Below, one piece after another: positions 23,308 to 39,275 of a stretch of DNA of 64,000 nucleotides. Positions within the stretch are counted from its first letter, which is position 1, and every line of letters begins with the position of its first letter. The DNA comes from a virus: positions 16,921 to 80,920 of IMG/VR virus record IMGVR_UViG_3300020474_000004, one strand, 5' to 3'. The notes beneath the pieces are model-generated. The model was not told the origin of the DNA. It did not search any database and saw only the letters and a list, made by a program, of their open reading frames with translations. The position numbers were made by a program, and so were the translations under genes.

Positions 23308-23643
23308 ATGTCAAATCCAGTACTTAATATAGTAATATCTCAAGGTTTTGATTTTGAAGAAACCTTCCAGTCAACTGAGGCTAATGGAACTACCAGTAAC
23401 TTGGCAGGATTTACTGCTTCCTCTGTGCTGAAAAAACACTCTGGTGCTTCTTCGTCTACACCATTTTCAGTTACTATTACTGGTAATACTGGAACTGTTG
23501 CAATTGCAATGACAAGTGGAAAGACAGTAGATTTGACTCCAGGAAGATATGTATATGACGTAAGATTAGTTTCATCAGCAGGAAAAGTATCAAGACTAGT
23601 TGAAGGAATGGCGTTAGTTACTCCTGGTATCACTACTTCATAA
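23308..23643 (+). CDS. Small beta-sandwich virion protein (fibre adaptor/BppU N-terminal-like)
   Basis: NIVISQGFDF...NLAGFTASSVLKKH...LTPGRYVYDV...RLVEG.A.VTPG pattern seen at the head of myovirus fibre clusters. Confidence 0.7.
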   Translation: MSNPVLNIVISQGFDFEETFQSTEANGTTSNLAGFTASSVLKKHSGASSSTPFSVTITGNTGTVAIAMTSGKTVDLTPGRYVYDVRLVSSAGKVSRLVEGMALVTPGITTS

Positions 23644-23646
23644 ATA
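23640..23646 (+). promoter_or_regulatory. Late promoter (ATAAATA)
   Basis: Late consensus overlapping upstream TAA. Confidence 0.55.
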
Positions 23647-23663
23647 AAAATAAAATCCGTTCC

Positions 23664-23963
23664 ATGGCTAGAATAGTAACTAAAAAGACCACAAGAACGA
23701 GATCAGTTCAGTCAGTAAAACCAGTGTCTAATCTGGAAGAATTGTCTGATGTAAATATCACTGGCGCACCGGATGCGTCGGTAGATGGGCATTTACTGAG
23801 TTTTGACTCAGCATCTAATAGTTTTGTTTTGATATCTCCCGATGAATACTTATCTAATACTGTAGCAGATGGAGATATTCCAGATCCATTTGTTACCCAG
23901 TTAGAAGGCGAACTTAACTTGGGAGACTTGCAGATTGAAAATCTTGATGGTGGTGCGTTCTAA
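23664..23963 (+). CDS. Small fibre-associated protein ending in LDGGAF
   Basis: 99 aa, LEELSDVN...DGHLLSFDS motif; paralogous to next ORF. Confidence 0.75.
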   Translation: MARIVTKKTTRTRSVQSVKPVSNLEELSDVNITGAPDASVDGHLLSFDSASNSFVLISPDEYLSNTVADGDIPDPFVTQLEGELNLGDLQIENLDGGAF

Positions 23964-24202
23964 TGTCAGTTCGTAGACTTCAAGATTTTGACAATACTAA
24001 TTTTGGGTCATTAGATTCTGGTAAAGATAAAGATGTTGTTTTCTTTAATACGACAACTGGAAATTTTGAATTAAGAAAAATTGGACAAACTTTAACAGCA
24101 TCTACATCTACTGGTACTCCTTCAGCATTAGTCGATCAAATCGAGAGTGAACTCGATATTAGTAAGATTGATTTTAGAGGAATAGACGGAGGAGAATTTT
24201 GA
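23963..24202 (+). CDS. Small fibre-associated protein ending in IDGGEF
   Basis: 79 aa, TAATG overlap with previous ORF, aligns with it by eye. Confidence 0.75.
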   Translation: MSVRRLQDFDNTNFGSLDSGKDKDVVFFNTTTGNFELRKIGQTLTASTSTGTPSALVDQIESELDISKIDFRGIDGGEF

Positions 24203-24209
24203 CTAAATA
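24203..24209 (+). promoter_or_regulatory. Late promoter (CTAAATA)
   Basis: Late consensus directly after the stop, upstream of fibre gene 24239. Confidence 0.6.
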
Positions 24210-24238
24210 ATACTAACGATATATTGTAAATACACGAG

Positions 24239-27200
24239 ATGCCCGCACCTGTAATTCAGTTTAAACGTGGTATTCTTGCCAATCTACCCGCACTGAGGGC
24301 AGGTGAACCAGGTTTTACCACAGATACTAGCGATTTATATGTTGGTATTGACTCTACCACAAGTAATAATCAATTTGTAGGATCAGGAAGATTTTGGTCC
24401 ACTGGATCTGCTACTGTAGGTAGTGGAGTCAAACTTGTCGAAGGCACTAATAATGGAACTAGTGCAATAACAATCAAGGCACCAAATAGTCTTGGTTCTG
24501 ATGTTACATTCACCTTTCCGGGATCTGATGGAACTAACGGTCAGGTTCTATCAACGAATGGTTCTGGGACATTATCTTTTATTGATTCTGCCGCAACGCT
24601 AAACATTGTAGGTGATTCAGGATCTGATGCTGTTGCACTTCTTTCAGATAACCTGACCTTTAGTGGAACTTCAAACGAAGTTGTTACTGCAGTCACGAAT
24701 AATACGATAACCATAAGTCTGCCTGATGACGTAACAATCGGTCAAGATTTAACTGTTACTAGAGATTTATCAGTTAATAGAAATGTCGCTATTACTGGAA
24801 ACACAGTATTAAGTAGCACTGGTTCTATTCAGATTCCAAAAGGAACAACTGCTCAGAGATTAAGCGGTGTTCTTGGTCAAATCAGATATAACACAACCTT
24901 ATCACAGTTTGAGGGATATGGTGCTGGTAACGCATGGGGATCTCTTGGTGGCGTAAAAGACGTAGATGGGGATACATTTATCAGAGCAGAATCTGCTGCT
25001 GGACAGGATGAAGATTCGCTTGAGTTCTTAACGGGAAGCAGCGTTAGAGTTTCGATTGACTCTGTTGGTAACGTTGGTGTTGGAACTACCGGTGGTCCCA
25101 GTGCAGATTCTACAAACGATACAGTGCTTAATGTTGGTATCGTTACTGCAAACAACTATTATGGAACTGGTGGAGATCTCAAGTTGGGATCTGCTGGTGA
25201 CGGAAGTTTAACTACATCTGGAGCACTTAATACGTTTACAACGGCATCAACTATTGTTAATAGTATTGATGATCTGAATGAAGTAGCATTCAATATCATT
25301 AAGAATACTGCTGTAACAGATGTTGGATTTACAGCAGACTCTACTTCAGGTGCTGCAACACTTACAGTTACTTTAACTATCACCTCTTCTGGCAACGCAA
25401 ACCAGTTTATTATCAACTGGGGTGACGGAAGTGCATTAGAAACAACCACAGACTCTACACCAACACACAACTATACTGATTCTGGTGGTGGTACTTATAA
25501 TGTAACAGTCATAGCAAGGAACTCTTCTGGTGTAGGTGCAGGTCACTCCCAATCTTTGACAAAGAGTAATTTTATTACAGTATTCACTCCTGCTCCTGTA
25601 ATGGGATTCAGTTTGTTCAGGGCATCCTCTGGCGGATCAGCACTGAGTGGAAATGACCTCTATGTCATCGATAATGGCGGTGGTCCTAGTAACTATCATA
25701 CTCTGCATCTTGACAACACTACACAAAATGCAACGGGTGTTGGTGCAACATTCACAATCAACTGGGGAGATGGATCTTCTGTACAAACTGTAACCACTGA
25801 TAATGCTGCTGGTGGCGCAGGTGGATCTGCTGGAAGACTTTCTCACCAGTGGGCAGATGGTACAAGCAGTGGCACTAGCACAGATAACGTCACTCTTACT
25901 ATTACTAACCATACAACAACTGATCCATCTGAGATTCCAAAGGCCACATCGACAGCGATCAAGGTTTACCAAGATGATGTTGCTGCTCCTGCTAATCTTG
26001 GAACTAAGACACTTTCGAACGTTTCCAGTCAAGGAACTTCGCCAAGACTCGCATCTGGATTTTCTGCTAACGGGGTAAGTGGACTCAACGCTGGTGATTC
26101 TGTCACAAGAGTCTCTAGTGGAACAGCAACTGCTGGTCCTATAACAACCTTTGCTTATGATGGAAATAACGGAACACTCTCTGCTAATGTAACTGGATCC
26201 ACTGATGGTAGCAGGGGACTTACTTCTGGTGATGACACTGGAAACTATACAAGTCTTCAGATCACCGATGAAAGTGATTATCAACTCTTAGATTCTTCTG
26301 GTTCAACAACATCTTTCGCAAACAGCATTTACTATCCCGGACTTTACAAAGGATTTAAGGCAAGAGTTTCTAAATCTGTTGCTTCTCTATCGACCGGTGC
26401 AAACAGTATGCAACTGGTTCATAGCACTCAGGGTTCAACAAACGTTGTCAAGTTTGTAAAGGACAACCTAACTGCAAGTCCAAGCATCTCTGCAACAGGA
26501 AGTCTTGCTCAGGGAACCGCAGGAACATTTAGATATATCTCTGGTATTCCTTACTACAACTCTGGTTCTCCTACTTTAACTCTCTCTGGAGTTACTATTT
26601 CTAATTTAGTTGGTCAGTGTCATACTAACCAGTCAAATATTGTTGAGGTAGATGATGGAAGCAACCAAGAGGGAACATCATCAAACGCAATTACTAACAC
26701 AGATTATACATATGCCCAGATTGATGGGTCTACAACCATGTTAAGTAGTGGTGTGCCACTCGCCAATACGGGAACTTCCTCTGCATATGCAATTGGTAAT
26801 CTCACAGTTCCAATTACTTCTTCAAGTGTCAGAACTATTAGTAGAGTCAAGGCTCGTGCTCGTAATGTAAATGGTGTTGGTTCTTACGGGTCTGACATTA
26901 CTACAAACGTTCAGGTTCATACAGCATCACAAAGCGGAATTAGTGAGATCGCGATTGCAGTTTCTGATTCTCTGGGTGATGGATTTGATGATGATGGAGT
27001 AAGAATCTATGACTTTAAGGATGCTGCTGCCGATAATCCATCATTTAACGGAAGCACAAACTTCTATACAAATCAACCATATACTGAGTCATTAGCTTCT
27101 GGAACTGTTGGCGTGAAAGAAGCAATCCTCAGACTTGGAGTTATCAAGTTTGACCAGACAGATTTCTCTTCTGGATATCTCCCTGCAGGTCCAGATAGAA

Positions 27201-27589
27201 GTTCTGCTCCTGCGAAACAATATTTCACGTTTGCCTTCCGACGAACACCGCTTGCTAACTTCAATATAAATATTACATCAAGTGGGATAACAGGTCTCTG
27301 GATAGCAGCACCTGGAACTCAGATAGATAGTACTAGTGGTATCAATGGTTGGTTAAAGGCGGATACTCAATACGCTGGATCCGGAATTCCTGGAAGCGGC
27401 ACAGGTGGTAATGGTAGTGATGGATGTGCTTCAACTGGTTCTGATAGAATTCAAGCAGATACTGCATTAAGTGGAAGTTATACAATGACTCTTGGATCAG
27501 AAAACCTCAGTAATGCTACTGGTAATGTTGTTTTGATAAGAATTGCATTAGATTCTGGTCAATCCGTAACAGCTCTTTCCGTATCCTAA
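24239..27589 (+). CDS. Fibre/virion structural protein with two PKD-like domains
   Basis: N-terminal IQFKRG..L.AGEPGFTTD..LYVG fibre motif; IQIPKGTTAQR..GQIRYN..FEGY motif; two INWGDG..H.Y/W PKD-like signatures. Confidence 0.8.
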   Translation: MPAPVIQFKRGILANLPALRAGEPGFTTDTSDLYVGIDSTTSNNQFVGSGRFWSTGSATVGSGVKLVEGTNNGTSAITIKAPNSLGSDVTFTFPGSDGTNGQVLSTNGSGTLSFIDSAATLNIVGDSGSDAVALLSDNLTFSGTSNEVVTAVTNNTITISLPDDVTIGQDLTVTRDLSVNRNVAITGNTVLSSTGSIQIPKGTTAQRLSGVLGQIRYNTTLSQFEGYGAGNAWGSLGGVKDVDGDTFIRAESAAGQDEDSLEFLTGSSVRVSIDSVGNVGVGTTGGPSADSTNDTVLNVGIVTANNYYGTGGDLKLGSAGDGSLTTSGALNTFTTASTIVNSIDDLNEVAFNIIKNTAVTDVGFTADSTSGAATLTVTLTITSSGNANQFIINWGDGSALETTTDSTPTHNYTDSGGGTYNVTVIARNSSGVGAGHSQSLTKSNFITVFTPAPVMGFSLFRASSGGSALSGNDLYVIDNGGGPSNYHTLHLDNTTQNATGVGATFTINWGDGSSVQTVTTDNAAGGAGGSAGRLSHQWADGTSSGTSTDNVTLTITNHTTTDPSEIPKATSTAIKVYQDDVAAPANLGTKTLSNVSSQGTSPRLASGFSANGVSGLNAGDSVTRVSSGTATAGPITTFAYDGNNGTLSANVTGSTDGSRGLTSGDDTGNYTSLQITDESDYQLLDSSGSTTSFANSIYYPGLYKGFKARVSKSVASLSTGANSMQLVHSTQGSTNVVKFVKDNLTASPSISATGSLAQGTAGTFRYISGIPYYNSGSPTLTLSGVTISNLVGQCHTNQSNIVEVDDGSNQEGTSSNAITNTDYTYAQIDGSTTMLSSGVPLANTGTSSAYAIGNLTVPITSSSVRTISRVKARARNVNGVGSYGSDITTNVQVHTASQSGISEIAIAVSDSLGDGFDDDGVRIYDFKDAAADNPSFNGSTNFYTNQPYTESLASGTVGVKEAILRLGVIKFDQTDFSSGYLPAGPDRSSAPAKQYFTFAFRRTPLANFNINITSSGITGLWIAAPGTQIDSTSGINGWLKADTQYAGSGIPGSGTGGNGSDGCASTGSDRIQADTALSGSYTMTLGSENLSNATGNVVLIRIALDSGQSVTALSVS

Positions 27590-27602
27590 GGTTATTAAGT
27601 AA

Positions 27603-30600
27603 ATGGCAATTTCAGAAGCACAAAAGGTTGACTTTCTTTGGAAGAAACTTGGTTACGGAGTTTCCAAGACCGATACTAATGCCAACAAGAAGGCAACTAA
27701 TGAATCAATAGCAAGTCCTCTACTTCTAAGAGGAAATAATGTATGGTCTCAGGCAGACCTAATCCCTGGCACAATGCCAGCATCTTCTGCTGGTGTAGTT
27801 ACTGTATATCCAACGACTGCACCAGATGAAACTACAGCAGATGCATCGGCATCATCTAATAGAACTTGGAAAACTGGATTAACTGATTGGATACCACCAG
27901 AGATTGGATCAACTTATCTTGTAAAGGTATATGTTCATACTGCTGGCGATGCTGCTAATGCTGCTGGTAGTGGAACTCAGGTATTTGGTGCTGGTTCTGG
28001 TAACAATGACGAATGGTTCTTTGACTATCAATCGGGCACTTTACACTTTATTGGAACAAATCTTCCAAACGGTGTAAATTTTTCTGGAAAGAGTGTTTAC
28101 GTAAGTGGTGCAAGATATACCGGTATTAAAGGTGTATCTGTTCCTGGATCTACCGCGACATTTAGTGATGTTAATGCAACTGGTATTGGTACATTCCAAT
28201 CTGGTGGTAGATTAGATGACGTTCAGATTGGTAGAACTGCAGCTAATGAGATTGATACAACGGCAGGAAATCTTATCTTAGATTCTGCTGGTGGAACAGT
28301 TCAGATTACTGACAATGCATCTGTTACCGGTAATACAACACTTAGTGGAACACTAGATGTAGATGGGCAGACTGATTTAGATGTATTAAACGTTGCTGAG
28401 ACCGCCACATTTAGTGCTGCAATCGACGCAAATGGGTCTTTGGATGTCGATGGTCATACAGAACTTGATGACGTTAATATCGCTGGTATAGCAACCGCTA
28501 CGGCAGTTCATTTAGGTGCTGAGGGATCGGCACTTCGTCTTACCACTAATACAATTTCTGGTCCTGCGACTATTACGATTGACCCTGCTGGTGTCGGAGA
28601 TAACACAGGAACACTCGTTGTTGCTGGTAATCTCCAAGTTGACGGAACACAAACTACCATCAACTCAACGACAGTCAATATAGACGATAAAAACATTCAG
28701 GTTGCCACTGGTGCTGCTAATGACGCAGCTGCTGATGGTGCTGGTATTACGGTTGATTCTGGTGAGGGAGACAAGACGTTCCAGTTTGAAGCAACCGGTG
28801 ATAACTGGGGTGCATCAGAGAATTTAAATCTTGCCTCTGGTAAAGCATATAAGATTAATAACACAAGCGTTCTTAACGCTACAACTCTTGGTGGAGCAGT
28901 TGTAAACTCTTCACTTACAAGTGTTGGAACTCTTACTGGTCTTACGGTTTCAGGTAATGCATCTGTTGAGGGTAATGTAGATCTTGGTAACGCTACCTCG
29001 GATACAATCACTGCAACTGGTAGATTTGACAGTGATTTAGTTCCATCTTCAGATGATGCAAGAGACTTAGGAACTTCTGCATTAAAGTGGAAAGATATTT
29101 ACATTGATGGTGTTGCATATGTTGATGATATTCACGCTGCAGATTGTGATATTAATGGTGGTAGCATCGATGGTGCTGCGATTGGTGCTAACTCTGCCTC
29201 GACTGGTGCTTTTACAAGTGTCACTGCAAGTGGTAATGCTACGGTAACAGGCAATATAGATGTAGATGGACATACAAATCTCGATAACGTAAGTATTGCA
29301 GGTCTCACAACTCATGCTGCTGGAGTAACATTCTCTGGTGCAATTGATGCTAACTCTACTGCTACATTTGCTACAGCAGTTATAGAAGATCTCACCAACA
29401 ATCGTGTAGTTATTGCTGGTTCTGGTGGAGAACTCGAAGATAGTGCAAATCTTACCTTTGATGGGTCAACTCTTAATGTTGTCGGACTTGCAGATCTTGA
29501 TAATGTAAATGTATCGAGTGCTGCAACTGTATCAACACTAATTGATGTTCAGGGTTATATAAAGGGATATAAGTTCCTCTCTGCTCCTTACGGAAGCACA
29601 ACAACAATTACTGTTACTGTTGCGAGTAAAGATGCAACTCACAGATACCAAGGAACTGGTAGTGGATCTGGATATTTACTAGACGGAGTTCAATCTCCAA
29701 TTCTCACGTTAACTCCAGGTAGAACTTACAGATTCGATACATCACATACAAGTAACGGTGGTCACCCATTCCTCTTCTATATGGAAGCGGATAAGACTAC
29801 TCAGTATACTACAAACGTTACCACAAACGGCACAGCAGGTAATGCTGGAGCATACACGCAGATTGTAGTCGGAGATGAAACTCCATCGGTTCTCCACTAT
29901 CAGTGCTCTGCTCATGGTTACATGGGTAACGCTGTTGTTACCAACTCTAATGCAATTAACTCAAACTATGCCGCAACTCTTCGCGGTGGATTGAGTGTTA
30001 CTGGAACAACAACGCTTGGAACTCTCGCATTCTCTGCTGGTGGTTCTTCGGTAACTGGTGTTCTTGATGAAGATAATTTTGCAAGCAACAGCAATACTAA
30101 ACTCGCGACTCAACAATCAATCAAGGCATATGTTGATTCTCAAATCACTGGATCTGATTTAGATTTCCAAGGCGATAGTGGTGGCGCACTTTCTATCGAT
30201 CTTGATAGTGAAACTCTGACGATTGCTGGAACAGCAAATGAGATTGTAACATCTGGATCTGGAAATACATTGACTATTAGTCTTCCAACCACAGTTACCA
30301 ATGATAATTTCCAAACCACTGCTGCTGGTAGAGTTACTACTGGTCTTATTGCGTCCGAAAACAATACAGATGGATTAACATTAGCAACTGGTGGTGGCAA
30401 AAAGTGGTTAAAAGGAACTGCTAATGCACAAGTTGAACTTTTTCATAATAATAATAAAAAATTTGAAACTACTTCATCCGGTGTTATCGTTACTGGCATT
30501 TCATCTGCAACAAGTTTAAGATTAGGCACTAGCACATTAGTAAGTGGTGTTCTTGATGAGGACAACTTGGCAAGTGACAGTGCCACTTCGCTTGCAACTC

Positions 30601-31598: not shown

Positions 31599-31604
31599 TA
31601 AATA
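31598..31604 (+). promoter_or_regulatory. Late promoter (ATAAATA)
   Basis: Late consensus at the end of the fibre gene. Confidence 0.6.
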
Positions 31605-31625
31605 GGGGAAGAATGACTTCCTCAT

Positions 31626-31949
31626 ATGGATGAACAAGATTATAAAAATTTGATTGCGATTTATCAACAAAAAGCGCAAGATTTCTTCAATCAAACGGTT
31701 GCTGCTGAAACCAGAGAGATGAAGTATAAGCAGCAAGCAGAAGTCTATGCTAATAGAATTACTGAACTTCAGAAGCAGTTAGGTTCTGCAAGTGAGGCAG
31801 TAAATTCTAGTAACGAATCTGCTCGTTCTTTGAAAGAGCAACTTTCGCAAGTAACAAGAGAACTTGAAGAAGAAAGAAATAAACCAGCACCTACTCCCAC
31901 AAGGTCACGAAAGGCAAAATCAAAGGATTTAGTCGCCGAAGAGTTCTAA
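31626..31949 (+). CDS. Coiled-coil protein, possible fibre assembly chaperone
   Basis: 107 aa, helical heptad composition, lies between two fibre genes with its own late promoter. Confidence 0.7.
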   Translation: MDEQDYKNLIAIYQQKAQDFFNQTVAAETREMKYKQQAEVYANRITELQKQLGSASEAVNSSNESARSLKEQLSQVTRELEEERNKPAPTPTRSRKAKSKDLVAEEF

Positions 31950-31955
31950 TAAATA
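31949..31955 (+). promoter_or_regulatory. Late promoter (ATAAATA) for long fibre gene
   Basis: Late consensus overlapping upstream stop. Confidence 0.65.
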
Positions 31956-31963
31956 TCTAAAGC

Positions 31964-31979
31964 ACCAGTATATACTGGT
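31964..31979. repeat. Perfect 16-bp palindrome ACCAGTATATACTGGT
   Basis: Read directly; lies in the 5' UTR of the 2411-aa fibre gene. Confidence 0.85.
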
Positions 31980-32008
31980 CATAGAATGACTACATAGACG
32001 CATAAAAA

Positions 32009-35000
32009 ATGGCAGATCCAAAGATTAAGTTTAAGAGGTCGGCTGTAGCCGGTAAAATTCCTACCGCCGCACAAGTTCCATTAGGAGAACTTGCTTTAAA
32101 CACTAACGATGGTCTTCTATATACGTCAAAAGATGTTGGTGCTGGAGCAACAGTCATCGCCGTTAACCCATTTAGGGTAGGCACAGGGACAGATAGTTAT
32201 AACGCATTTTTTACTGCTGGTAATGTTGGTATAGGTTCTACATTACCAACGGCAAAACTTGATGTATCCGGTCAAGTAAATATAACAAATTCAGAATCAC
32301 AAGGTTCTGCTACTACTGGCGCAGTTGAGTTTGATGGGAATGATTCTCTCAGGGTGGTGCATGACTCAGGGTTCAACTTAGGATCAAATAATTTCACTGT
32401 AGAAGCATGGTTTAAATATACTGGAACAATAAGTAATTATCATAGTATCTTCGCATTTTCAGGTGGCAACATCAATATTAGGCTTAGATTATTAAGTGGT
32501 AATGTAAGACTTGATTATAGAATTGCTGCTCTTGGTGCTACTTTATCAGGATCTGATGCTACTGTTGCGCTTTCATCTGGAACATGGTATCACGTTGCCC
32601 TTGTAAGGAATGGTAATAATTTAAATCTTTACTTGGATGGCGTTTCTAAACTTAGTTCAACAACATTTACTCAATCCTTTTCTGATCAAAATGGCGAAGG
32701 ATTTAGTATAGGATCCCATGCAAACGCAACGCCAGGACATTTCTTCCCAGGTGATATTTCTAACGTTCGTCTTGTAAATGGAACTGCTGTATATACTTCG
32801 GCATTTACAGTGCCCACAACACAACTTTCAAATATAACAAATACGAAAGTTCTCTGCTGCCAATCAACAAGTTCAGTCACAGCAGAAGCAACTGGCAAAA
32901 CAATTAATACTACTGGAGACCCATCAGTTGCATCCAGTAATCCAGGATTAACATATACAGCGACTATTAGTGCTCCAAGTCATTTAAATGTATCTGGAAT
33001 AACAACTACATCTGTATTAAAAGTAGGAACTGGTATAACTGCTTCTGGTGGTATTGTAACTGCTACAACTTTCAGTGGTTCTGGTGCATCTCTTACCAAT
33101 CTTCCTGCTGCAAACATAACAGGAACTTTACCAGCAATAAGTGGTGCTAACTTAACGAACTTAAATGCGTCGAATCTTGCTTCAGGCACTGTTCCTGATG
33201 GTAGATTCCCTGCCACACTTCCTGCTGCTAGTGGCGCTAATTTAACAAACTTACCAGCAGCAAATGTAACTGGTACACTTCCTGCAATTAGTGGTGCTAA
33301 CTTAACGAACTTAAATGCTTCTAATCTTGCTTCAGGCACCGTTCCCACAGCAAGAATTCCTACACTCAATCAGGATACAACAGGAACTGCTGCTGGATTA
33401 ACTGGTACTCCAAATATAACAGTTGGAACTGTCACAGGAGCATCTTTAGATATTTCCGGTAACGTTGATATTGATGGAACCTTAGAAGCAGATGCCATTA
33501 CTGTTGATGGTACAACATTAGCAGAAACTATTTCAGATACTGTAGGTGCAATGGTTTCTAGTAATACCGAATCTGGTATTACTGTTACATATCAAGATAG
33601 TGATAATACTCTTGATTTTAGTGTAGCATCACAAACTGATGAAAACTTTACGACTGCTGATCATTCCAAATTAGATGGTATTGAAGCAAGTGCTGATGTA
33701 ACTGACGCAACTAATGTGGCAGCAGCTGGTGCTGTTATGGAGTCAGATTCTACTACTGCAAGTATGAGTTTTGTTGTAGATGAAGATAATATGTCTTCTA
33801 ATTCTGCTACAAAAGTACCAACTCAACAGTCTGTTAAAGCATACGTTGATTCTCAGGTAACGGCACAAGATTTAGATCTTACAACTGATAGTGGGACTAT
33901 CGCTATTGATCTCGATAGTGAAACTCTTACCATTCAAGGTACAACAAACGAAATTGAGACAAGTGCAACTGGTAATACTGTCACTGTCGGTCTTCCCAAT
34001 AATGTAACCGTAGGAAATAATCTTACAGTTGGAAATGACTTGGTTGTAACCGGATCATTAACATATGAAGATGTAACTAATATTGATTCCGTAGGATTAT
34101 CAACATTTAGAGCAGGAGTTAATATCACTGGAACAGCGACCGCAACATTATTTTCCGGTTCTGGTGCATCACTCACCAATCTTCCTGCTGCTAATCTTAC
34201 AGGAACTCTACCTGCTATTAGTGGTGCAAACTTAACGAACTTAGATGCTACCGATCTTGCCTCTGGAACTATCCCAGATGCACGATTCCCAGCAGCACTT
34301 CCTGCGATTGATGGATCTGCACTTACAGGTATCACAGCATCAGGAACTGGTGCTATTGGTGGTCTAACCATTAAGAATCAAAGTGGTGCTGTTGTTGGTA
34401 CTGCAGGTAGTGTTTCTACGATTGACTTTGATGGATCTGCAGGAGTTACTGTTTCTGCTACAACTGGTGCTGCCGGTATTGCTACCGTGCTCATCTCTGC
34501 AGATCTTGTAACAGATACATCTCCACAACTTGGTGGCAATTTAGATCTCAACGGCAATAATATCACTGGATCTGGTAATATTCCTGCTGCTAATGTAACT
34601 GGCACACTTCCTGCGATTAGTATTGGTGGTGACTTATCTATCGTCGATAAGATAGTTCACACTGGAGATACCAATACATCTATTGGATTCCCTTCTGATG
34701 ATAAAATACAACTTGCCACAAATGGATCTCCAAAAATGACACTCGACAACGTAGGTCGCGTGTTGATTGGAACTACAGGTGCTCCATCTGGCACTGATGC
34801 TCAATATAGTAAATTAGTAATTAGAGGAAATACTTCATCGGCCACAGCAGTTGCTTATTTGTCATTAGGAAACGGGAAAACAACATCAGATACAGGAACA
34901 AACGAAAACTTAGGAATACTTACTTTTAATGATAATGATAACGACGCAGGTGAATACGCACGTATTATAGGTGCATCAGATGGTTCGAATGGAACTGACG

Positions 35001-38000
35001 ATTATCCAGGAAAACTGATATTTTCTACAACTGCTGATGGTGGTTCAAGTCCAACAGAAAGACTTCGTATCAACAGCTCGGGTCAGGTGCTGATTGGTGC
35101 CACAAGCGGCGGCGGTTTATTTTCGGTTCATCAGGCTACTAGTTCGACCTCTAATTACATAAACATTACCAATGACGCCACTGGTTCTTCTTCGTGGGCG
35201 AATGGAATGCTCTTGGGTAACAATGCGTCTGGCGATGCATTGGTCTGGCAAAATGAAAACCTAAATTTAATTTTTGGAACCAACAATAACGAGCGGATGC
35301 GTATAACCGCTACTGGAAGAATGGGATTGGGAACCCAAAATCCAACATCAACATTACATGTTAGTGGTACTGTAACTGCTACAACTTTCAGTGGTTCCGG
35401 TGCATCACTCACCAATATTCCTGCTGCTAATCTTACAGGAACACTCCCAGCGATTAGTGGTGCTAATCTCACTAATCTTGATGCTTCAGACCTCGCTTCA
35501 GGCACAGTTCCTGATGGTAGATTCCCTGCCACACTTCCTGCAGCTAGTGGCGCTAATTTAACAAATTTACCAGCTGCAAACATAACAGGAACTTTACCGG
35601 CAATCAGCGGTGCAAACTTAACGAACTTAAATGGTTCGAATATTTCTTCGGGAACAGTTGCTGCCGCGAGGGTTGGTGCTCTTCCCGCAAGTAAAATCAC
35701 TACAGGCACATTTGATGCTGCTAGAATTCCTACTCTTAATCAGGATACAACAGGAACTGCTGCTGGGTTAACGGGAACTCCAAATATAACTGTTGGAACT
35801 GTAACAGCAGCATCTTTAGATATTTCTGGAAACGTTGATGTTGATGGGACACTAGAAGCAGATGCTATCACTATTGATGGAGCAACTCTCGCAGAAACTA
35901 TTTCCGACACTGTAGGAGCAATGGTTTCCAGTAATACCGAAACTGGCATTACTGTTGCATATCAAGATAGTGATAATACTCTTGATTTTTCCATTGGAAC
36001 ATTAAATCAAGATACAACAGGAACTGCTGCACTTGCAGAGGGTCTGACTGGTTCACCTACTATTGGCGTCAGCACAATTACAACTACTGGTAGTGTAGGA
36101 ATAGGTTCCACACTACCAACAGGTAAACTTGACGTTTTAGGTCAAGTAAACATCAAATCTACATCGACCACAACAACATCCGGAATAGCAACATCATATA
36201 CTGGATCTGTTTATCTTGATGGCAATAGTGATTATCTAACAGTTCCTGGTCCTGGAACATTAGCAGCAAGTTCTAACTGGACTTTAGAATGCTATTTCTA
36301 TTGCACTGGTACTTCTAGTGGAACTTATAGAATTGTTGGTGCCAATGAAAGTGTAAATGGATCTCAATATTCTTTTATTAGGATCAGGAATGGTCAGTAT
36401 CAGTTTTTTACTGATAATGCATATAGTAGTACAGTTGGAACTGCTACTTTTAATGCATGGCACCATATTGCATTTACAAAAACTGGAACAACTCTGCGTG
36501 GTTTTGTTGATGGGGTCAAAATTTATGAGGCAACAGACAATAATTCAGATAGTATTACAACATTTGTTGTTGGATGGGGTTATGGAAGTGAATATTTCCC
36601 AGGATATATTTCAAATGTAAGATTTGTAAATGGCACTTCTCTTTACAAAGAGAACTTCACTCCCCAGACAGCAGAACTTACCAAAATTTATAATACTACT
36701 CACCTTTTAGCACAGTCTTCAAGTTCAGCAACTGCAGAAGCGACTGGCAAAACTGTGACTGCTGTTGGCACTGCTGCAGCATCAACAACAAATCCAAGTC
36801 TTGTAAAAGGATTTGATTTGTCTGGTTCTGTTGAACTTGATGGAACTGGTGATTATCTTAGTGTAACTCATTCTGATTTAGCATTAGGTACGGGAGACTT
36901 TACACTTGAATTTTGGACGTACATACACACTCAAAACGCTGGATATGATGCAGTATTTGAAAGTCGATCATCTACTAGCGCAACTGATGGATTTACTATT
37001 GGAAGATTTGGAACTTCTGGTCATGTTAATAAGTTTTCAATGTTTTTCGGTGGAAATTATAGATCAGAAGCAGATACAACAGTTGCAAACAATACATGGT
37101 CTCATGTAGCACTTGTTAGATTTAATGGTACAACTACATTATACTTAAATGGTATAGCAGGGTCCACAACTTATAGTGACTCAAATAATTATAGCAACAC
37201 TTCTGTAAAGATTGGTGTTAATGCAAGTAACTCTAACGATTTTGATGGAAATATCTCCAACTTACGTTTAGTTAAAGGAACCGCACTTTATACATCTAAC
37301 TTCTCCCCAACATTTACTGAACTTACAAATTTACCAAATACAAAACTTCTTGCGTTTCAATCATCAAGTTCTGCAACAGCTGAAGCAACTGGTAAAACTA
37401 TTACTGCTGTTGGTAATGCTGCTGCATCAACAACAAGTCCCGGATTAATCTCACCAAATAGTCTCACTGGTTCTGTTGATTTTGATGGAACAGGTGATTA
37501 CTTAACAGTCGCCGATAGTTCTTTAAATCCAGGAACAGGTGATTTTGCTGTAGAGGCATTTGTTAAATTTGCAAGCAATTCTGGAACTAGAAGAGCAGTG
37601 GTTATGGACACCACTGCATATGGTTCCAATAGTTTAAGTATTCAACAATATAATAATGGATTTGAATTTTATTGTGGTGGTCAAAATCACTATACAAGTG
37701 GTTTTGACATGACAATATGGCATCACGCGCTGATCACAAGAAAGAGTAATACAATAAGATATATTGTCGATGGTAAAATAATAGGAACAGATACTAGTTC
37801 TAACAACATTTATGGTGAACCTACAAATACATTAACTATTGGTGGATATAATAGTGTTTCCAATAGTGAGTATATGGGGGGTTATATTAGTAATGTAAGA
37901 TTAGTTGTAGGTTCTGTTCCATCTGAGTATGAAACGACATCTACATCTGTTGGAACACAAGTATTTACTCCTACAAGAGAAGAATTAACTAATGTTACTG

Positions 38001-39244
38001 ATACCAAGTTTCTTGGATTGCAGTCAGCAAGTTCTGCAACAGCATATGCTGTTTCTCCTGCATCAATCTCTGCTTATGGAGATGCATCAGCATCATCGAC
38101 ATCTCCTGGTTTGGTCAAAGCATATACTAATGCTAGTGGACAAACAACGACCACAACAACAACCTCAGGTAATTTATTAGTAAGTGGCATTACAACTGCT
38201 ACGAATAGAATTGATATTAAGAGTGATGATTCTACACCAGGACGTATTGATTTCTATTGCGAATCCAGTAATGCTCATTATACCCAACTTAGATCTGCTG
38301 CTCATGCAAGTTATTCTGGTATAGCAACAGTAACTTTACCAACCTCAACGGGAACTTTACTTCTTACTGATGGTTCCGGTGCATCACTTACCAATCTTCC
38401 CGCTGCTAATTTAACAGGAACTTTACCAGCAATTAGTGGTGCTAATCTGACTAATCTGGATGCGTCAGACCTTGCCTCAGGTACAGTTCCAGATGCACGA
38501 TTCCCTGCTACATTACCTGCTGCTAGTGGTGCTAATTTAACAAACTTACCAGCAGCAAATATAACTGGGACTTTACCCGCAATTAGTGGTGCCAATCTTA
38601 CAGGAATAGATATTGGCATTGCTGGTGACAGTGGAACTGGTACGGTTAATACCTCACAATCATTAACTATCGCTGGAACATCAAGTGAGATTGTAACTTC
38701 AGCATCTGGACAGACTATTACTCTTAGCCTTCCAACCACAGTTACCAATGATAATTTTGAAACCACTGCTGCTGGTAGAGTTACCACCGGTCTTATTGCA
38801 TCTCAAAATAATACGGATGGATTAACATTAGCAACTGGAGGTGGCAAAAAGTGGTTGGTTGGACGTGCTAATGCAGAAGTAGAACTTTATTATAATAACA
38901 ATTTAAAATTTGAAACCACTAACGATGGTGCAGTTGTAACTGGTATTGTAACTGCCACATCTTTTTCTGGTTCTGGCGCTAATCTTACAAATGTAAACGC
39001 TACTGTTGCTGGTATTAGTACAACAGGAACAAGCACATTTAATCATGTATCTGTCACTGGTGTTGCGACAGTATCAACTGCATTCTATCTTCCACAGTAT
39101 ACAACTACTGCAAGAGACGCAGGTACATTTAATGAAGGTGCAATGATTTACAATACAACATTGAAGAAAATGGAATTCTATGATGGTACTAACTGGGTCA
39201 CTCTACCTGGCGTTACTCTTGGACTTGGTATGGGGGTATTTTAA
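32009..39244 (+). CDS. Long tail fibre protein with four LamG/concanavalin A-like domains and internal repeats
   Basis: N-terminal IKFKRS...GELALNTNDGLLY; four domains with FT.E.[WF]...W.H.A..R/K.....Y.DG...G.ISN.R.V signature; four GASLTN.PAAN.TGTLPAISGANLTNL repeat blocks; C-terminal GAMIYNTT.KKMEFYDGTNW. Confidence 0.88.
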   Translation: MADPKIKFKRSAVAGKIPTAAQVPLGELALNTNDGLLYTSKDVGAGATVIAVNPFRVGTGTDSYNAFFTAGNVGIGSTLPTAKLDVSGQVNITNSESQGSATTGAVEFDGNDSLRVVHDSGFNLGSNNFTVEAWFKYTGTISNYHSIFAFSGGNINIRLRLLSGNVRLDYRIAALGATLSGSDATVALSSGTWYHVALVRNGNNLNLYLDGVSKLSSTTFTQSFSDQNGEGFSIGSHANATPGHFFPGDISNVRLVNGTAVYTSAFTVPTTQLSNITNTKVLCCQSTSSVTAEATGKTINTTGDPSVASSNPGLTYTATISAPSHLNVSGITTTSVLKVGTGITASGGIVTATTFSGSGASLTNLPAANITGTLPAISGANLTNLNASNLASGTVPDGRFPATLPAASGANLTNLPAANVTGTLPAISGANLTNLNASNLASGTVPTARIPTLNQDTTGTAAGLTGTPNITVGTVTGASLDISGNVDIDGTLEADAITVDGTTLAETISDTVGAMVSSNTESGITVTYQDSDNTLDFSVASQTDENFTTADHSKLDGIEASADVTDATNVAAAGAVMESDSTTASMSFVVDEDNMSSNSATKVPTQQSVKAYVDSQVTAQDLDLTTDSGTIAIDLDSETLTIQGTTNEIETSATGNTVTVGLPNNVTVGNNLTVGNDLVVTGSLTYEDVTNIDSVGLSTFRAGVNITGTATATLFSGSGASLTNLPAANLTGTLPAISGANLTNLDATDLASGTIPDARFPAALPAIDGSALTGITASGTGAIGGLTIKNQSGAVVGTAGSVSTIDFDGSAGVTVSATTGAAGIATVLISADLVTDTSPQLGGNLDLNGNNITGSGNIPAANVTGTLPAISIGGDLSIVDKIVHTGDTNTSIGFPSDDKIQLATNGSPKMTLDNVGRVLIGTTGAPSGTDAQYSKLVIRGNTSSATAVAYLSLGNGKTTSDTGTNENLGILTFNDNDNDAGEYARIIGASDGSNGTDDYPGKLIFSTTADGGSSPTERLRINSSGQVLIGATSGGGLFSVHQATSSTSNYINITNDATGSSSWANGMLLGNNASGDALVWQNENLNLIFGTNNNERMRITATGRMGLGTQNPTSTLHVSGTVTATTFSGSGASLTNIPAANLTGTLPAISGANLTNLDASDLASGTVPDGRFPATLPAASGANLTNLPAANITGTLPAISGANLTNLNGSNISSGTVAAARVGALPASKITTGTFDAARIPTLNQDTTGTAAGLTGTPNITVGTVTAASLDISGNVDVDGTLEADAITIDGATLAETISDTVGAMVSSNTETGITVAYQDSDNTLDFSIGTLNQDTTGTAALAEGLTGSPTIGVSTITTTGSVGIGSTLPTGKLDVLGQVNIKSTSTTTTSGIATSYTGSVYLDGNSDYLTVPGPGTLAASSNWTLECYFYCTGTSSGTYRIVGANESVNGSQYSFIRIRNGQYQFFTDNAYSSTVGTATFNAWHHIAFTKTGTTLRGFVDGVKIYEATDNNSDSITTFVVGWGYGSEYFPGYISNVRFVNGTSLYKENFTPQTAELTKIYNTTHLLAQSSSSATAEATGKTVTAVGTAAASTTNPSLVKGFDLSGSVELDGTGDYLSVTHSDLALGTGDFTLEFWTYIHTQNAGYDAVFESRSSTSATDGFTIGRFGTSGHVNKFSMFFGGNYRSEADTTVANNTWSHVALVRFNGTTTLYLNGIAGSTTYSDSNNYSNTSVKIGVNASNSNDFDGNISNLRLVKGTALYTSNFSPTFTELTNLPNTKLLAFQSSSSATAEATGKTITAVGNAAASTTSPGLISPNSLTGSVDFDGTGDYLTVADSSLNPGTGDFAVEAFVKFASNSGTRRAVVMDTTAYGSNSLSIQQYNNGFEFYCGGQNHYTSGFDMTIWHHALITRKSNTIRYIVDGKIIGTDTSSNNIYGEPTNTLTIGGYNSVSNSEYMGGYISNVRLVVGSVPSEYETTSTSVGTQVFTPTREELTNVTDTKFLGLQSASSATAYAVSPASISAYGDASASSTSPGLVKAYTNASGQTTTTTTTSGNLLVSGITTATNRIDIKSDDSTPGRIDFYCESSNAHYTQLRSAAHASYSGIATVTLPTSTGTLLLTDGSGASLTNLPAANLTGTLPAISGANLTNLDASDLASGTVPDARFPATLPAASGANLTNLPAANITGTLPAISGANLTGIDIGIAGDSGTGTVNTSQSLTIAGTSSEIVTSASGQTITLSLPTTVTNDNFETTAAGRVTTGLIASQNNTDGLTLATGGGKKWLVGRANAEVELYYNNNLKFETTNDGAVVTGIVTATSFSGSGANLTNVNATVAGISTTGTSTFNHVSVTGVATVSTAFYLPQYTTTARDAGTFNEGAMIYNTTLKKMEFYDGTNWVTLPGVTLGLGMGVF
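33056..33620 (+). repeat. ~570-bp internal duplication, copy 1 (copy 2 at ~35372-35990)
   Basis: VTATTFSGSGASLTN...PTLNQDTTGTAAGLTGTPNITVG...YQDSDNTLDFS nearly identical in both copies; copy 2 has an extra ~18-aa insert. Confidence 0.85.
35372..35990 (+). repeat. Internal duplication, copy 2
   Basis: See 33056-33620. Confidence 0.85.
38729..38856 (+). repeat. 128-bp direct repeat, copy 2
   Basis: About 92% identical to 30282-30409 by hand alignment. Confidence 0.9.
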
Positions 39245-39254: not shown

Positions 39255-39275
39255 ATTGATATTAACTGTGTTTTG

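What the first reader, a model, noticed from the sequence alone, without database searches (positions are those of the whole stretch)
23308..39244. Possible plug-and-socket fibre assembly code: C-terminal D[GA]GxF tails paired with N-terminal IxFKR heads
Seen: three different ORFs end in the same terminal motif, LDGGAF (23963), IDGGEF (24202) and IDAGAF (31598). Two large fibre genes begin with a shared head, MPAPVIQFKRG..L.AGEPGFTTD..LYVG (24239) and MADPKIKFKRS...LGELALNTND.LLY (32009). In both cases a D[GA]GxF-ending gene lies just upstream of a KR-head gene; in the second case a coiled-coil ORF that itself ends in EEF intervenes. Inference: the acidic, Phe-terminated peptide docks into the basic N-terminal domain of the next trimer, so separately encoded fibre segments could be chained or branched from a small adaptor (23308) and swapped as modules. 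I know of no description of this as a system.
Basis: partly seen in the sequence, partly recalled or inferred. Interest (0 to 1): 0.75.

Follow-up and report, generated by a model that had tools for sequence, protein, structure and literature searches.

The report
Peptide-and-cap joints linking cyanophage fibres
In this T4-like cyanophage, fibre proteins that end in a short Asp-Gly-Gly-x-Phe peptide most likely clip onto the small N-terminal cap of the next fibre protein, a connector I found no description of; binding is predicted, not measured.

Summary
Exactly three reading frames in the window end in D[GA]GxF, and all three lie in the fibre island between gp16 and gp17. Both large "head" genes start with homologous Mtd_N-type caps.

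The tail is the most conserved part of a small-protein family that is otherwise 26% identical. It occurs almost only in this module: 13 seen against 0.25 expected in 2,366 ORFs of nine genomes.

In 15 of 16 LtfC-positive genomes or near-complete contigs the number of tails equals the number of caps (0:0, 1:1 or 2:2). This holds even where the two genes lie 50-116 kb apart.

A 3:3 model of the 79-aa protein with the first 120 residues of the next fibre scored 0.82, against 0.48 for the best control. The interface is the last ten residues on cap residues 1-17.

My reading is a serial joint: LtfC-like collar protein, small anchor protein(s), fibre, fibre.

This scan noted the same pattern before on other DNA. 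I found no published description.

The parts
23308..23643 (+). LtfC-like beta-sandwich protein (111 aa). Putative collar or anchor for the fibre system. It has no tail and no head motif.
   Evidence: Pfam PF23926 LtfC, 28.4 bits against a cut-off of 27. PHROG 3304 'L-shaped tail fiber protein assembly', E 6e-27. Its profile gives a marginal hit to PDB 8hqz chain Q 'L-shaped tail fiber assembly', E 0.0045. In 115 of 122 unique loci the next gene ends in a tail: 99 strict and 16 variant.
23664..23963 (+). S1, a small anchor protein (99 aa). It has a basic N-terminal extension, one fibre hairpin unit and a helix-like linker. The tail LDGGAF is at 23943-23960.
   Evidence: No Pfam or PHROG family. 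Alignment A2. It corresponds to the single small protein that follows LtfC in relatives with one such gene.
23963..24202 (+). S2, a paralogue of S1 (79 aa) without the N-terminal extension. The tail IDGGEF is at 24182-24199.
   Evidence: In the predicted complex, residues 67-68 and 70-79 touch the head of the next gene.
24239..27589 (+). FibA, a head-bearing fibre (1116 aa). The Mtd_N cap is at 24239-24346 (aa 1-36), and there is a PKD-like domain. It has no tail (ends LSVS).
   Evidence: Pfam PF18454 Mtd_N, 35.8 bits against a cut-off of 26.3. AF2 model of aa 1-120: mean pLDDT 74.6, with 81-92 for aa 1-50. Best Foldseek matches are HylP1 2C3F, HylP3 2YVV and Mtd 1YU0-1YU4. Head residues 1, 3-11, 15-17 and 25 form the predicted interface.
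27603..31598 (+). FibB, a tail-bearing fibre (1331 aa) with no head. The tail IDAGAF is at 31578-31595.
   Evidence: PHROG tail-fibre families. In relatives such as L008 and S-B05, one protein of 589-695 aa carries both the FibA-type head and this type of C-terminus.
31626..31949 (+). cc, a small coiled-coil protein (107 aa) with a basic linker and an acidic, Phe-terminated end (..LVAEEF). This is a degenerate tail.
   Evidence: Its counterparts directly upstream of second-head genes end in ..KDAGSF or ..DDGGTF (exact tail), or in ..DAGEFA..DGGTFE..PIDEF or ..HSDF.
32009..39244 (+). FibC, the second head-bearing fibre (2411 aa). The cap is at about 32009-32137 (aa 1-43). Pfam matches four stretches to Laminin_G_3 (one each to Laminin_G_2 and G_1). 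It has no tail (ends GMGVF).
   Evidence: The head is below Pfam's Mtd_N threshold: 0 families for this protein, and 2 of 17 relatives match weakly. hhalign of 17 FibC-type heads against 11 FibA-type heads gives probability 95.8%, E 8e-9, over 39 columns.

Best explanation
The island between gp16 and gp17 encodes a fibre that is assembled from separate proteins through one repeated joint.

The plug is a free C-terminal peptide, [DN]-[GA]-G-x-[FY]-COOH, preceded by a short strand. The socket is the first ~17 residues of an Mtd_N-type N-terminal cap (hydrophobic strand, then K-R-[GS]) on the next trimer. In the model, each of three tails lies along the cap's first strand. The terminal Phe packs against cap residues 9-11 and 15-17.

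Proposed order of parts:
- the LtfC-like protein (23308), as collar or anchor;
- the small anchor S1, and its paralogue S2;
- the FibA cap;
- separately, the FibB tail on the FibC cap, with the coiled-coil protein (whose end is plug-like) acting at that second joint.

What is shown: the motifs, their conservation, their exclusivity, their gene order, the matching genome counts, and the homology of the two caps.

What is predicted: contact between the S2 tail and the FibA cap.

What is inferred only:
- that the S1 N-terminus is held by LtfC-like subunits through strand donation, as LtfA is in phage DT57C;
- that FibB plugs into FibC;
- the role of the coiled-coil protein;
- where on the virion the assembly sits. 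It may be the neck or collar, because in many relatives the module occupies the position just before gp13.
For: (1) Conservation. The tail is the only invariant element in 59 small-protein homologues with 26% mean column identity.

(2) Exclusivity. Among 1,709 unique ORFs from 169 loci plus the window, strict tails sit on:
- 115 of 131 S-family proteins (10 more have 1-2 extra residues);
- 76 of 117 head proteins;
- 52 others, mostly fibres that follow LtfC.
The remaining 1,394 unlabelled or LtfC ORFs carry neither a strict nor an extended tail; 15 other ORFs carry an extended tail. Chance predicts 0.25 in 2,366 ORFs and I saw 13.

(3) Adjacency, over 114 unique pairs of a head and its upstream gene:
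- 81 upstream genes end in a strict tail;
- 9 end in a tail plus 1-2 residues;
- 7 end in an acidic residue then Phe or Tyr;
- 16 end otherwise, and about 9 of these are D[YD]G.F-type variants;
- 1 head has no upstream gene in the locus.

(4) Genome counts, tails:heads, in 14 LtfC-positive isolates and 2 contigs that are 86% complete:
- 0:0 in S-SM2, HTVC008M, S-SSM7 and P-TIM68;
- 1:1 in S-T4, S-SKS1 and S-CAM7;
- 2:2 in DSL-LC02, Mosig, P-HM1, P-SSM2, Melnitz-1, S-CAM9, G001 and G002;
- 3:2 in S-B05.
Counts are equal in 15 of 16. A shuffle test gives p about 1e-5, without phylogenetic correction.

In S-T4, S-SKS1, S-CAM7, DSL-LC02, P-SSM2 and S-CAM9 a partner head gene lies 50-116 kb from the tail gene. 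So the match is not just one cassette moving as a unit.

The first element after LtfC never has a head, and the last head fibre never has a tail. That is what a linear chain predicts.

(5) Predicted complex: FibA aa 1-120 x3 with S2 x3, each with its own alignment (57 rows used).
- ipSAE 0.81, 0.83 and 0.82 in three runs; the controls gave 0.48, 0.05 and 0.00.
- In the tool's calibration, 58 of 80 solved complexes and 2 of 110 mismatched pairs reached the mark.
- The runs share at least 97% of contacts; partner pLDDT is at least 73.
- The interface is S2 residues 67-68 and 70-79 on head residues 1, 3-11, 15-17 and 25.

(6) The pass is unlikely to come from memory of a solved complex.
- The head and S profiles find no solved relative by sequence.
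- The fold matches (HylP, Mtd) are, as far as I recall, crystal structures of those proteins solved without a virion partner, so no such partner is available to copy.

(7) In coiled-coil proteins the tail follows a Lys/Arg/Thr-rich linker (..KTKTTRKTSSTKDAGSF). So it behaves as an autonomous peptide rather than part of a fold.

(8) Modularity. The first 80 head residues are 76-100% identical in the best 80 of 449 IMG/VR relatives, while the proteins range from 378 to 1,120 aa.
Against: - There is no experiment. The only direct evidence for contact is one model.
- One control with an unrelated partner still scored 0.48, so the cap's N-terminal strand may pair readily with many strands. The tool also warns that its calibration covered single-chain pairs and its own alignments.
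- The window and S-B05 have three tails for two heads, or four if plug-like coiled-coil ends are counted. A simple 1:1 chain is therefore incomplete there.
- FibA has no tail and FibB has no head, so their relation is unexplained.
- Classical HylP-type heads lack a tail partner: the single head each of Syn9 and P-SSM4, the second adjacent head in L038, and the 384-aa protein in G004.
- Tail-bearing genomes always carry an LtfC-like gene too, so the counts cannot on their own exclude LtfC as the tail's partner.
- The genomes share ancestry, so the shuffle p-value overstates independence.
- For the eight pattern-scanned records counted in the tally (five isolates and three LtfC-negative controls) plus five IMG/VR contigs, of which two are counted, tails were found with a strict DNA pattern plus inspection of the module. 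Variant tails elsewhere in those genomes would be missed.
Confidence: 0.65

Rival explanations
1. The tail is only the end of each protein's own C-terminal trimerisation or folding unit, a foldon-like hairpin plus a terminal aromatic residue. On this view it has no inter-protein role, and heads attach by other means.
For: In many relatives the tail follows a fibre hairpin unit within 4-16 residues, for example ..LVYDAAADEYVLKALPIDGGTF (L125) or ..PVWTDAIDGGTF (L139). Fibres generally need a C-terminal trimerisation element (general knowledge). The partner's own pLDDT in the model is only 73-74.
Against: - The same tail sits on Lys/Arg/Thr-rich linkers after a coiled coil in the cc proteins. 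In S1 and S2 it lies about 35 residues from the hairpin.
- Of the 150 best representatives found through the hairpin unit, 131 have neither tail nor head by my patterns, while 12 of 12 small (74-105 aa) family members have a tail.
- Terminal fibres lack the tail.
- This view does not predict that tail number should track head number.
- Pfam finds no fibritin or foldon family in S1 or S2 even at E up to 10.
Confidence: 0.12
2. The tails dock into the LtfC-like beta-sandwich ring, or another virion protein, by strand addition. Tail-bearing proteins would then be anchored by their C-termini, and the heads would be unrelated attachment domains.
For: In 115 of 122 unique loci the LtfC-like gene is followed directly by a tail-bearing gene. 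Every tail-bearing genome I examined has an LtfC-like gene, and the three LtfC-negative genomes have no module tails. In DT57C, LtfC binds fibre strands by beta-sheet augmentation (PMC10713586, passages read).
Against: - In DT57C it is the fibre's N-terminus that enters LtfC. The proteins that follow LtfC here share a conserved N-terminal strand-like segment, such as ..IRVRVGQQNAVKV...
- Four genomes have LtfC but no tails.
- In P-SSM2 the tail genes lie about 73 kb from the LtfC-like genes.
- Tail number varies from 0 to 3 with head number, while LtfC number stays at 1-2.
- The tail-head model passed its controls.
- This rival pair was not itself modelled.
Confidence: 0.1
3. The tail is a tag read by an assembly factor, for example the neighbouring coiled-coil protein acting as a fibre chaperone, or by a processing enzyme. 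It would not be a structural joint in the finished virion.
For: A small coiled-coil gene always follows the tail-bearing head fibre. Small coiled-coil chaperones for fibre trimerisation are known in T4 (gp57A, recalled). The cc protein's own end is tail-like, which could mimic or compete with a tail.
Against: - S proteins in S-T4, S-SKS1 and S-CAM7 have tails although no coiled-coil gene follows them; the next gene there is gp13.
- Nothing links the tail to the coiled coil itself.
- The predicted contact is with the cap.
- This rival was not tested directly.
Confidence: 0.08
4. The pattern is chance or mere paralogy: the three ends are alike only because the genes are recent duplicates.
For: S1 and S2 are paralogues, 28% identical.
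Against: FibB and the cc proteins are unrelated to S outside the tail. The tail stays invariant while the rest of the family drops to 14-40% identity. Chance predicts 0.25 and I saw 13.
Confidence: 0.02

Closest known systems
Mtd_N cap of Bordetella phage BPP-1 Mtd and of streptococcal prophage hyaluronidases HylP (Pfam PF18454; PDB 1YU0-1YU4, 2C3F, 2YVV, 2DP5)
   Same: FibA's first 36 residues pass Pfam's threshold for this family. Its model matches these structures best: 28-29% identity, rmsd 2.1-2.5 A over 48-49 columns for HylP. Mtd sits at the ends of tail fibres (PMC2408619, passages read), so the cap is an attachment end there too.
   Different: No partner of the cap is described in what I read. 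Here a defined C-terminal peptide is proposed as that partner. The FibC-type cap has a four-residue insertion and falls below the Pfam threshold.
T5/DT57C lateral fibre attachment: LtfC collar plus LtfA N-terminus (PMC10713586; PDB 8hqz)
   Same: A homologous small beta-sandwich protein is encoded directly before the first fibre element. In DT57C, fibre strands extend LtfC sheets, and a trimeric helix bundle follows (passages read).
   Different: DT57C is a siphovirus, and its LtfC surrounds the tail tip. Here the gene sits among the neck genes of a T4-like myovirus. No ring, stoichiometry or contact was tested. DT57C LtfA has no DGGxF tail that I know of, and I did not check.
Phage T4 long tail fibre, gp34-gp35-gp36-gp37 (recalled, not from a call)
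   Same: Separately encoded proteins are joined end to end into one fibre. Distal parts are exchangeable.
   Different: No sequence relation was found. T4's joints are not known to me as a repeated peptide-and-cap motif used at successive joints.
Neck fibre of Anabaena myophage A-1(L), gp82-gp81-gp80 (PMC10966104)
   Same: It is a cyanophage fibre built head to tail from separate trimers. The N-terminal hairpins of one trimer bind the C-terminal domain of the previous one, and the fibre is anchored at the neck (passages read).
   Different: The proteins are different. The A-1(L) model is a bead chain of about 14 identical trimers. No terminal DGGxF peptide or Mtd_N cap is reported in the passages I read.
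C-terminal peptide recognition by strand addition, as in PDZ domains (recalled)
   Same: It works alike: a free C-terminus with a terminal hydrophobic or aromatic residue adds a strand beside an existing strand, close to basic residues.
   Different: There is no homology. The receiver here is a trimeric viral cap, and three peptides would bind at once.

Membership tests
Mtd_N (Pfam PF18454) | Sequence match above the curated threshold at the N-terminus (FibA, 24239) | tested here: met
   35.8 bits against a cut-off of 26.3, aa 6-36. A six-frame search of the whole record gives 39.3 bits.
Mtd_N (Pfam PF18454) | Sequence match above the curated threshold at the N-terminus (FibC, 32009) | tested here: not met
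   No Pfam hit for the window's FibC head at E up to 10. Only 2 of 17 FibC-type heads match, weakly (best E 0.0049). Homology to FibA-type heads is nonetheless supported by hhalign: 95.8%, E 8e-9.
Mtd_N (Pfam PF18454) | Fold like the N-terminal domain of Mtd and HylP | tested here: inconclusive
   Monomer AF2 model has pLDDT 81-92 for aa 1-50. The top Foldseek hits are HylP1-3 and Mtd, but E is only 0.045-0.27 and no hit reaches E 0.001.
LtfC-like beta-sandwich (Pfam PF23926; T5/DT57C collar protein) | Sequence match above the curated threshold | tested here: met
   28.4 bits against a cut-off of 27. PHROG 3304, E 6e-27. PDB 8hqz_Q, E 0.0045.
LtfC-like beta-sandwich (Pfam PF23926; T5/DT57C collar protein) | Forms a ring on the virion that holds fibre N-termini by strand donation | not tested
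T4 fibritin foldon | Recognisable foldon or fibritin C-terminal family at the end of the tail-bearing proteins | tested here: not met
   No Pfam family at all for S1 or S2 at E up to 10. For the last 199 aa of FibB there is only a weak DUF5462 hit, E 0.017.
T4-type serial long tail fibre (gp34-37) | Homology to gp34, gp35, gp36 or gp37 | tested here: not met
   Pfam and PHROG scans of all seven island proteins returned no gp34-37 family. The resemblance is functional only.

The most novel reading that the evidence does not exclude
The tail [DN][GA]Gx[FY]-COOH and the KR[GS]-type Mtd_N cap form a portable two-part connector. Many marine T4-like phages would use it at successive joints, and, according to unchecked notes of this scan, so would other phages and giant viruses. 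Fibres could then be lengthened, shortened or re-tipped by swapping whole genes. On this reading the small proteins are dedicated adaptors from an LtfC-like collar. The coiled-coil proteins carry a decoy or helper plug that controls when the distal fibre is added.
Probability: 0.4. Interest if true: 0.8.

Novelty: new variant of a known kind. Interest (0 to 1): 0.66.

Why it matters
- It would give function to three kinds of unannotated genes that recur in marine cyanophage, pelagiphage and methylophage genomes: the small S proteins, the coiled-coil protein and the LtfC-like protein. In IMG/VR, 449 stretches encode a relative of the head and at least 574 a relative of the LtfC-like protein.
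- It would explain how the hypervariable fibre islands of these phages exchange receptor-binding parts while keeping assembly intact.
- It would supply a small, defined handle (about 10 residues plus about 17 residues) for testing host-range determinants in cultured cyanophages.
- It would name a partner for the Mtd_N cap. I found no binding partner described for it.

Tried and rejected
DNA searches. Megablast and blastn of the island, and tblastn of S2, against the phage collection found nothing. Relatives had to be reached through proteins, using IMG/VR loci and the head.

Pfam Mtd_N as a genome-wide head detector. It missed FibC-type heads, so I used a profile built from 15 heads instead (A5).

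Foldon-like reading. I held this at roughly even odds early on. I lowered it after seeing tails on basic linkers, the matching genome counts and the tail-less hairpin fibres.

S2 as a 'mini-head' that accepts S1's tail. This would explain three tails for two heads, because the S2 N-terminus carries a conserved MPxR[LF]RxL motif. hhalign of the S family against both head families gives probability 0.3-0.4%. So there is no support, and it remains untested structurally.

Tail-head covariation in the 59 paired rows. N-type tails go with I-I-R-V-K-R-S-type heads, but this follows clades, so I draw nothing from it.

Literature. Searches returned no description of this joint. One search was swamped by 'mtDNA' matches and is uninformative. 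I read passages only of PMC10966104, PMC10713586 and PMC2408619, and otherwise saw only listings. Supplements were not opened. The library lacks most subscription journals, so 'not in print' is limited to these searches.

Not done:
- the second structure job, the search for homologous proteins, and the sequencing-run tools.

Full report
CONTEXT

The window is bases 16921-80920 of an 80,920-base IMG/VR virus record that is estimated to be 38% complete. Its large terminase is 90.2% identical to that of Synechococcus phage S-SM2, so this is a T4-like cyanomyovirus.

By comparison with the S-SM2 annotation, the genes run gp13 (19534), gp14 (20376), gp15 (21875), gp16 (22839), then an island of eight genes, then gp17 (40972). 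The island has a higher G+C content (0.39-0.43) than the neck genes before it (0.34-0.36).

THE OBSERVATION

The island holds:
- an LtfC-like protein, 23308-23643 (Pfam PF23926, 28.4 bits against a cut-off of 27; PHROG 3304, E 6e-27);
- S1, 23664-23963, ending LDGGAF;
- S2, 23963-24202, ending IDGGEF;
- FibA, 24239-27589, with an Mtd_N cap (PF18454, 35.8 bits against 26.3) and no tail;
- FibB, 27603-31598, with no cap, ending IDAGAF;
- a coiled-coil protein, cc, 31626-31949, ending AEEF;
- FibC, 32009-39244, with a cap and four stretches matching the Laminin_G_3 family, and no tail;
- a DUF192/DUF6321 protein.

Only these 3 of 529 frames of 40 aa or more end in D[GA]G.[FY]. S1 and S2 match no Pfam or PHROG family.

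The FibC cap is below Pfam's threshold. It is nonetheless homologous to the FibA cap by profile comparison: probability 95.8%, E 8e-9.

CONSERVATION

Relatives were reached through IMG/VR and through named phages. The same gene order recurs in Synechococcus, Prochlorococcus, Pelagibacter and Methylophilales myoviruses. That order is an LtfC-like gene, one or two small proteins, a head fibre that usually also ends in a tail, a small coiled-coil protein, and often a second head fibre.

In 59 small-protein homologues with 26% mean column identity, the only invariant columns are the tail Gly and Phe, and the tail Asp is nearly invariant.

Among 1,709 unique ORFs from 169 loci plus the window:
- 115 S-family proteins have a strict tail, 10 have a tail plus 1-2 residues, and 6 have none;
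- 76 head proteins have a strict tail, 1 has an extended one, and 40 have none;
- 52 other ORFs have a strict tail and 15 an extended one;
- 1,394 ORFs have none.

Of 122 unique pairs of LtfC and the next gene, the next gene has a strict tail in 99, a variant tail in 16, and neither in 7.

Of 114 unique pairs of a head and its upstream gene:
- 81 upstream genes end in a strict tail;
- 9 end in a tail plus 1-2 residues;
- 7 end in an acidic residue then Phe or Tyr;
- 16 end otherwise, about 9 of them variants such as D-Y-G-S-F;
- 1 head has no upstream gene in its locus.

Variants seen include D-C-G-x-Y, E-G-G-x-F and a tail followed by one extra residue.

WHOLE-GENOME COUNTS

I fetched nine complete genomes and scanned every ORF of 45 aa or more. 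I scanned five more isolates and five long IMG/VR contigs with a head profile and a tail DNA pattern, then inspected the hits.

Tails:heads were:
- 0:0 in S-SM2, HTVC008M, S-SSM7 and P-TIM68;
- 1:1 in S-T4, S-SKS1 and S-CAM7;
- 2:2 in DSL-LC02, Mosig, P-HM1, P-SSM2, Melnitz-1, S-CAM9 and two contigs that are 86% complete;
- 3:2 in S-B05.

Counts are equal in 15 of 16. A shuffle test gives p about 1e-5, not corrected for shared ancestry.

I left three less complete contigs (41-58%) out of that count. One has a variant tail directly before a head. One has a tail directly before a head plus a classical head with no tail upstream. One has a tail and no head in the 96 kb available.

In six genomes a partner head gene lies 50-116 kb from the tail gene. 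In the nine fully scanned genomes no strict tail occurs outside the module, whereas composition predicts 0.25 and I saw 13.

Three LtfC-negative cyanomyoviruses served as controls. S-PM2 has neither tail nor head. Syn9 and P-SSM4 each have one classical HylP-type head at the position before gp13. The small upstream protein there ends in acidic residues without Phe, and there is no module tail. P-SSM4 also has a 55-aa early-region ORF ending N-G-G-F-F, which I take as chance. The cap family is therefore wider than the subset that goes with tails.

PREDICTED CONTACT

I modelled three copies of FibA residues 1-120 with three copies of S2, each with an alignment of IMG/VR relatives (59 rows given, 57 used). 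The results:
- ipSAE was 0.81, 0.83 and 0.82 in three runs.
- The controls gave 0.48, 0.05 and 0.00.
- The tool's mark was reached by 58 of 80 solved complexes and 2 of 110 mismatched pairs.
- The runs share at least 97% of their contacts.
- Partner pLDDT is at least 73, and the other chains score 94.

The tool notes that its calibration used single-chain pairs and its own alignments.

The confident interface is S2 residues 67-68 and 70-79 against head residues 1, 3-11, 15-17 and 25. Tail positions 74-79 run alongside head positions 5-11. The terminal Phe touches head residues 9-11 and 15-17.

The model supports binding but does not show it. One unrelated partner reached 0.48, so the cap's first strand may pair easily with other strands.

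A pass from memory seems unlikely. Neither the head profiles nor the S profile finds a solved relative by sequence. The best fold matches are HylP and Mtd, and as far as I recall those structures hold no virion partner bound at the cap.

WHAT IT MOST LIKELY IS

I read the system as a serial joint. The first element after LtfC never has a head, the last head fibre never has a tail, and the middle elements have both.

The proteins that follow LtfC share a strand-like N-terminal segment, whether they are 70 or 2,126 aa long. In phage DT57C the fibre protein LtfA enters the dodecameric LtfC collar through N-terminal strands that extend LtfC's sheets (PMC10713586, passages read). By analogy, S1 would be held by the LtfC-like protein and would offer its tail to FibA's cap. 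That step is inference, and I did not model it.

In many relatives the module lies just before gp13, where T4 has its whisker gene (the T4 gene order is recalled). The assembly may therefore be a neck or collar fibre rather than a baseplate fibre. I did not test this.

OPEN POINTS
- The window and S-B05 have two S paralogues, so three tails face two heads. A heterotrimer of S1 and S2, or S2 acting as an extender, are untested ideas. Profile comparison gives no sign that S2 carries a hidden cap.
- The cc protein has a conserved N-terminal helix, a basic linker and a tail that is exact in some relatives and degenerate in others. It could be a second plug at the FibC cap or an assembly helper.
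- In the window the usual head-plus-tail fibre is represented by two proteins, FibA (head only) and FibB (tail only). How those two relate is unknown.

THE HAIRPIN UNIT

The N-terminal half of S is a unit that recurs in fibres. A profile of the family finds 3,059 representative proteins at E up to 0.001, with up to 29 copies in one protein.

Of the best 150 representatives:
- 131 have neither tail nor head by my patterns;
- 12 of 12 small (74-105 aa) proteins have a tail, 11 strict and 1 with one extra residue;
- 4 larger proteins have a strict tail;
- 3 start with a head-like motif.

Many of these are metagenome proteins that may be truncated.

COMPARISON WITH WHAT IS KNOWN

Fibres made of several proteins joined end to end are classical (T4 gp34-37, recalled). 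A cyanophage neck fibre built head to tail from trimers has been described (A-1(L), PMC10966104). LtfC collars are known. Mtd_N is known as the N-terminal domain of receptor-binding proteins that sit at fibre ends (PMC2408619).

What I did not find in print is the pairing of a defined C-terminal peptide with this cap. My searches were made, with the limits given under Tried and rejected. I therefore class it as a new variant of a known kind.

Earlier notes of this scan report the same pattern in at least 20 other genomes, including T4-like cyanophages and giant viruses. Those are unchecked AI notes and I do not count them as evidence. I saw them after forming my reading.

VERDICT

My confidence that tails dock on caps as a structural joint is about 0.65.

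Noticed in passing
window 24001-36000: The fibre island has G+C of 0.39-0.43, against 0.34-0.36 in the neck genes before it. This fits a mosaic, exchangeable region.
   Followed up: no
window 39273-40964: A 563-aa protein with DUF192 and DUF6321 lies between the fibres and gp17. Its C-terminal end (..RINKSLRAWNC) is kept in S-SM2, S-B05, S-B43, S-T4 and S-SKS1, and nearly so in DSL-LC02, always just before the gp17 region.
   Followed up: no
window 23963-24010 and representatives P0078-P0147: S2-type proteins share a conserved N-terminal motif, MPxR[LF]RxL.., seen in about 8 of the 12 small representatives. Its role is unknown, and hhalign does not link it to the head families.
   Followed up: partly
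L302 (Syn9) 1501-3129; L303 (P-SSM4) 1501-3126: LtfC-negative cyanomyoviruses carry a classical HylP-type Mtd_N head on a very large protein at the position before gp13. Two small coiled-coil genes precede it, the nearer one ending in acidic residues without Phe. This may be a different way of attaching the same cap.
   Followed up: partly
S-T4, S-SKS1, P-SSM2 genomes and L145 14514-14855: The remote head fibres (617-928 aa, ending ..ILALG-type) are each followed by a conserved ~113-aa protein. In S-T4, S-SKS1 and P-SSM2 a fibre protein of 1,170-1,727 aa comes next. This is a second conserved fibre locus whose joints do not use the tail motif.
   Followed up: no
window, + strand frames of 70 aa or more: 11 of 61 frames end in Phe. 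They include gp15 (..GSYF), the cc protein (..AEEF) and FibC (..GMGVF), besides the three tails.
   Followed up: no
search of 1.84 billion representatives: The hairpin unit in the N-terminal half of S recurs up to 29 times per protein, in 3,059 representative proteins at E up to 0.001. It is a very common building block of fibres.
   Followed up: partly
HTVC008M genome 69453-70976: A 507-aa protein outside the module ends ..EDDGQF. This is the only loose tail-like end in a genome with no tails and no heads, and is probably chance.
   Followed up: no
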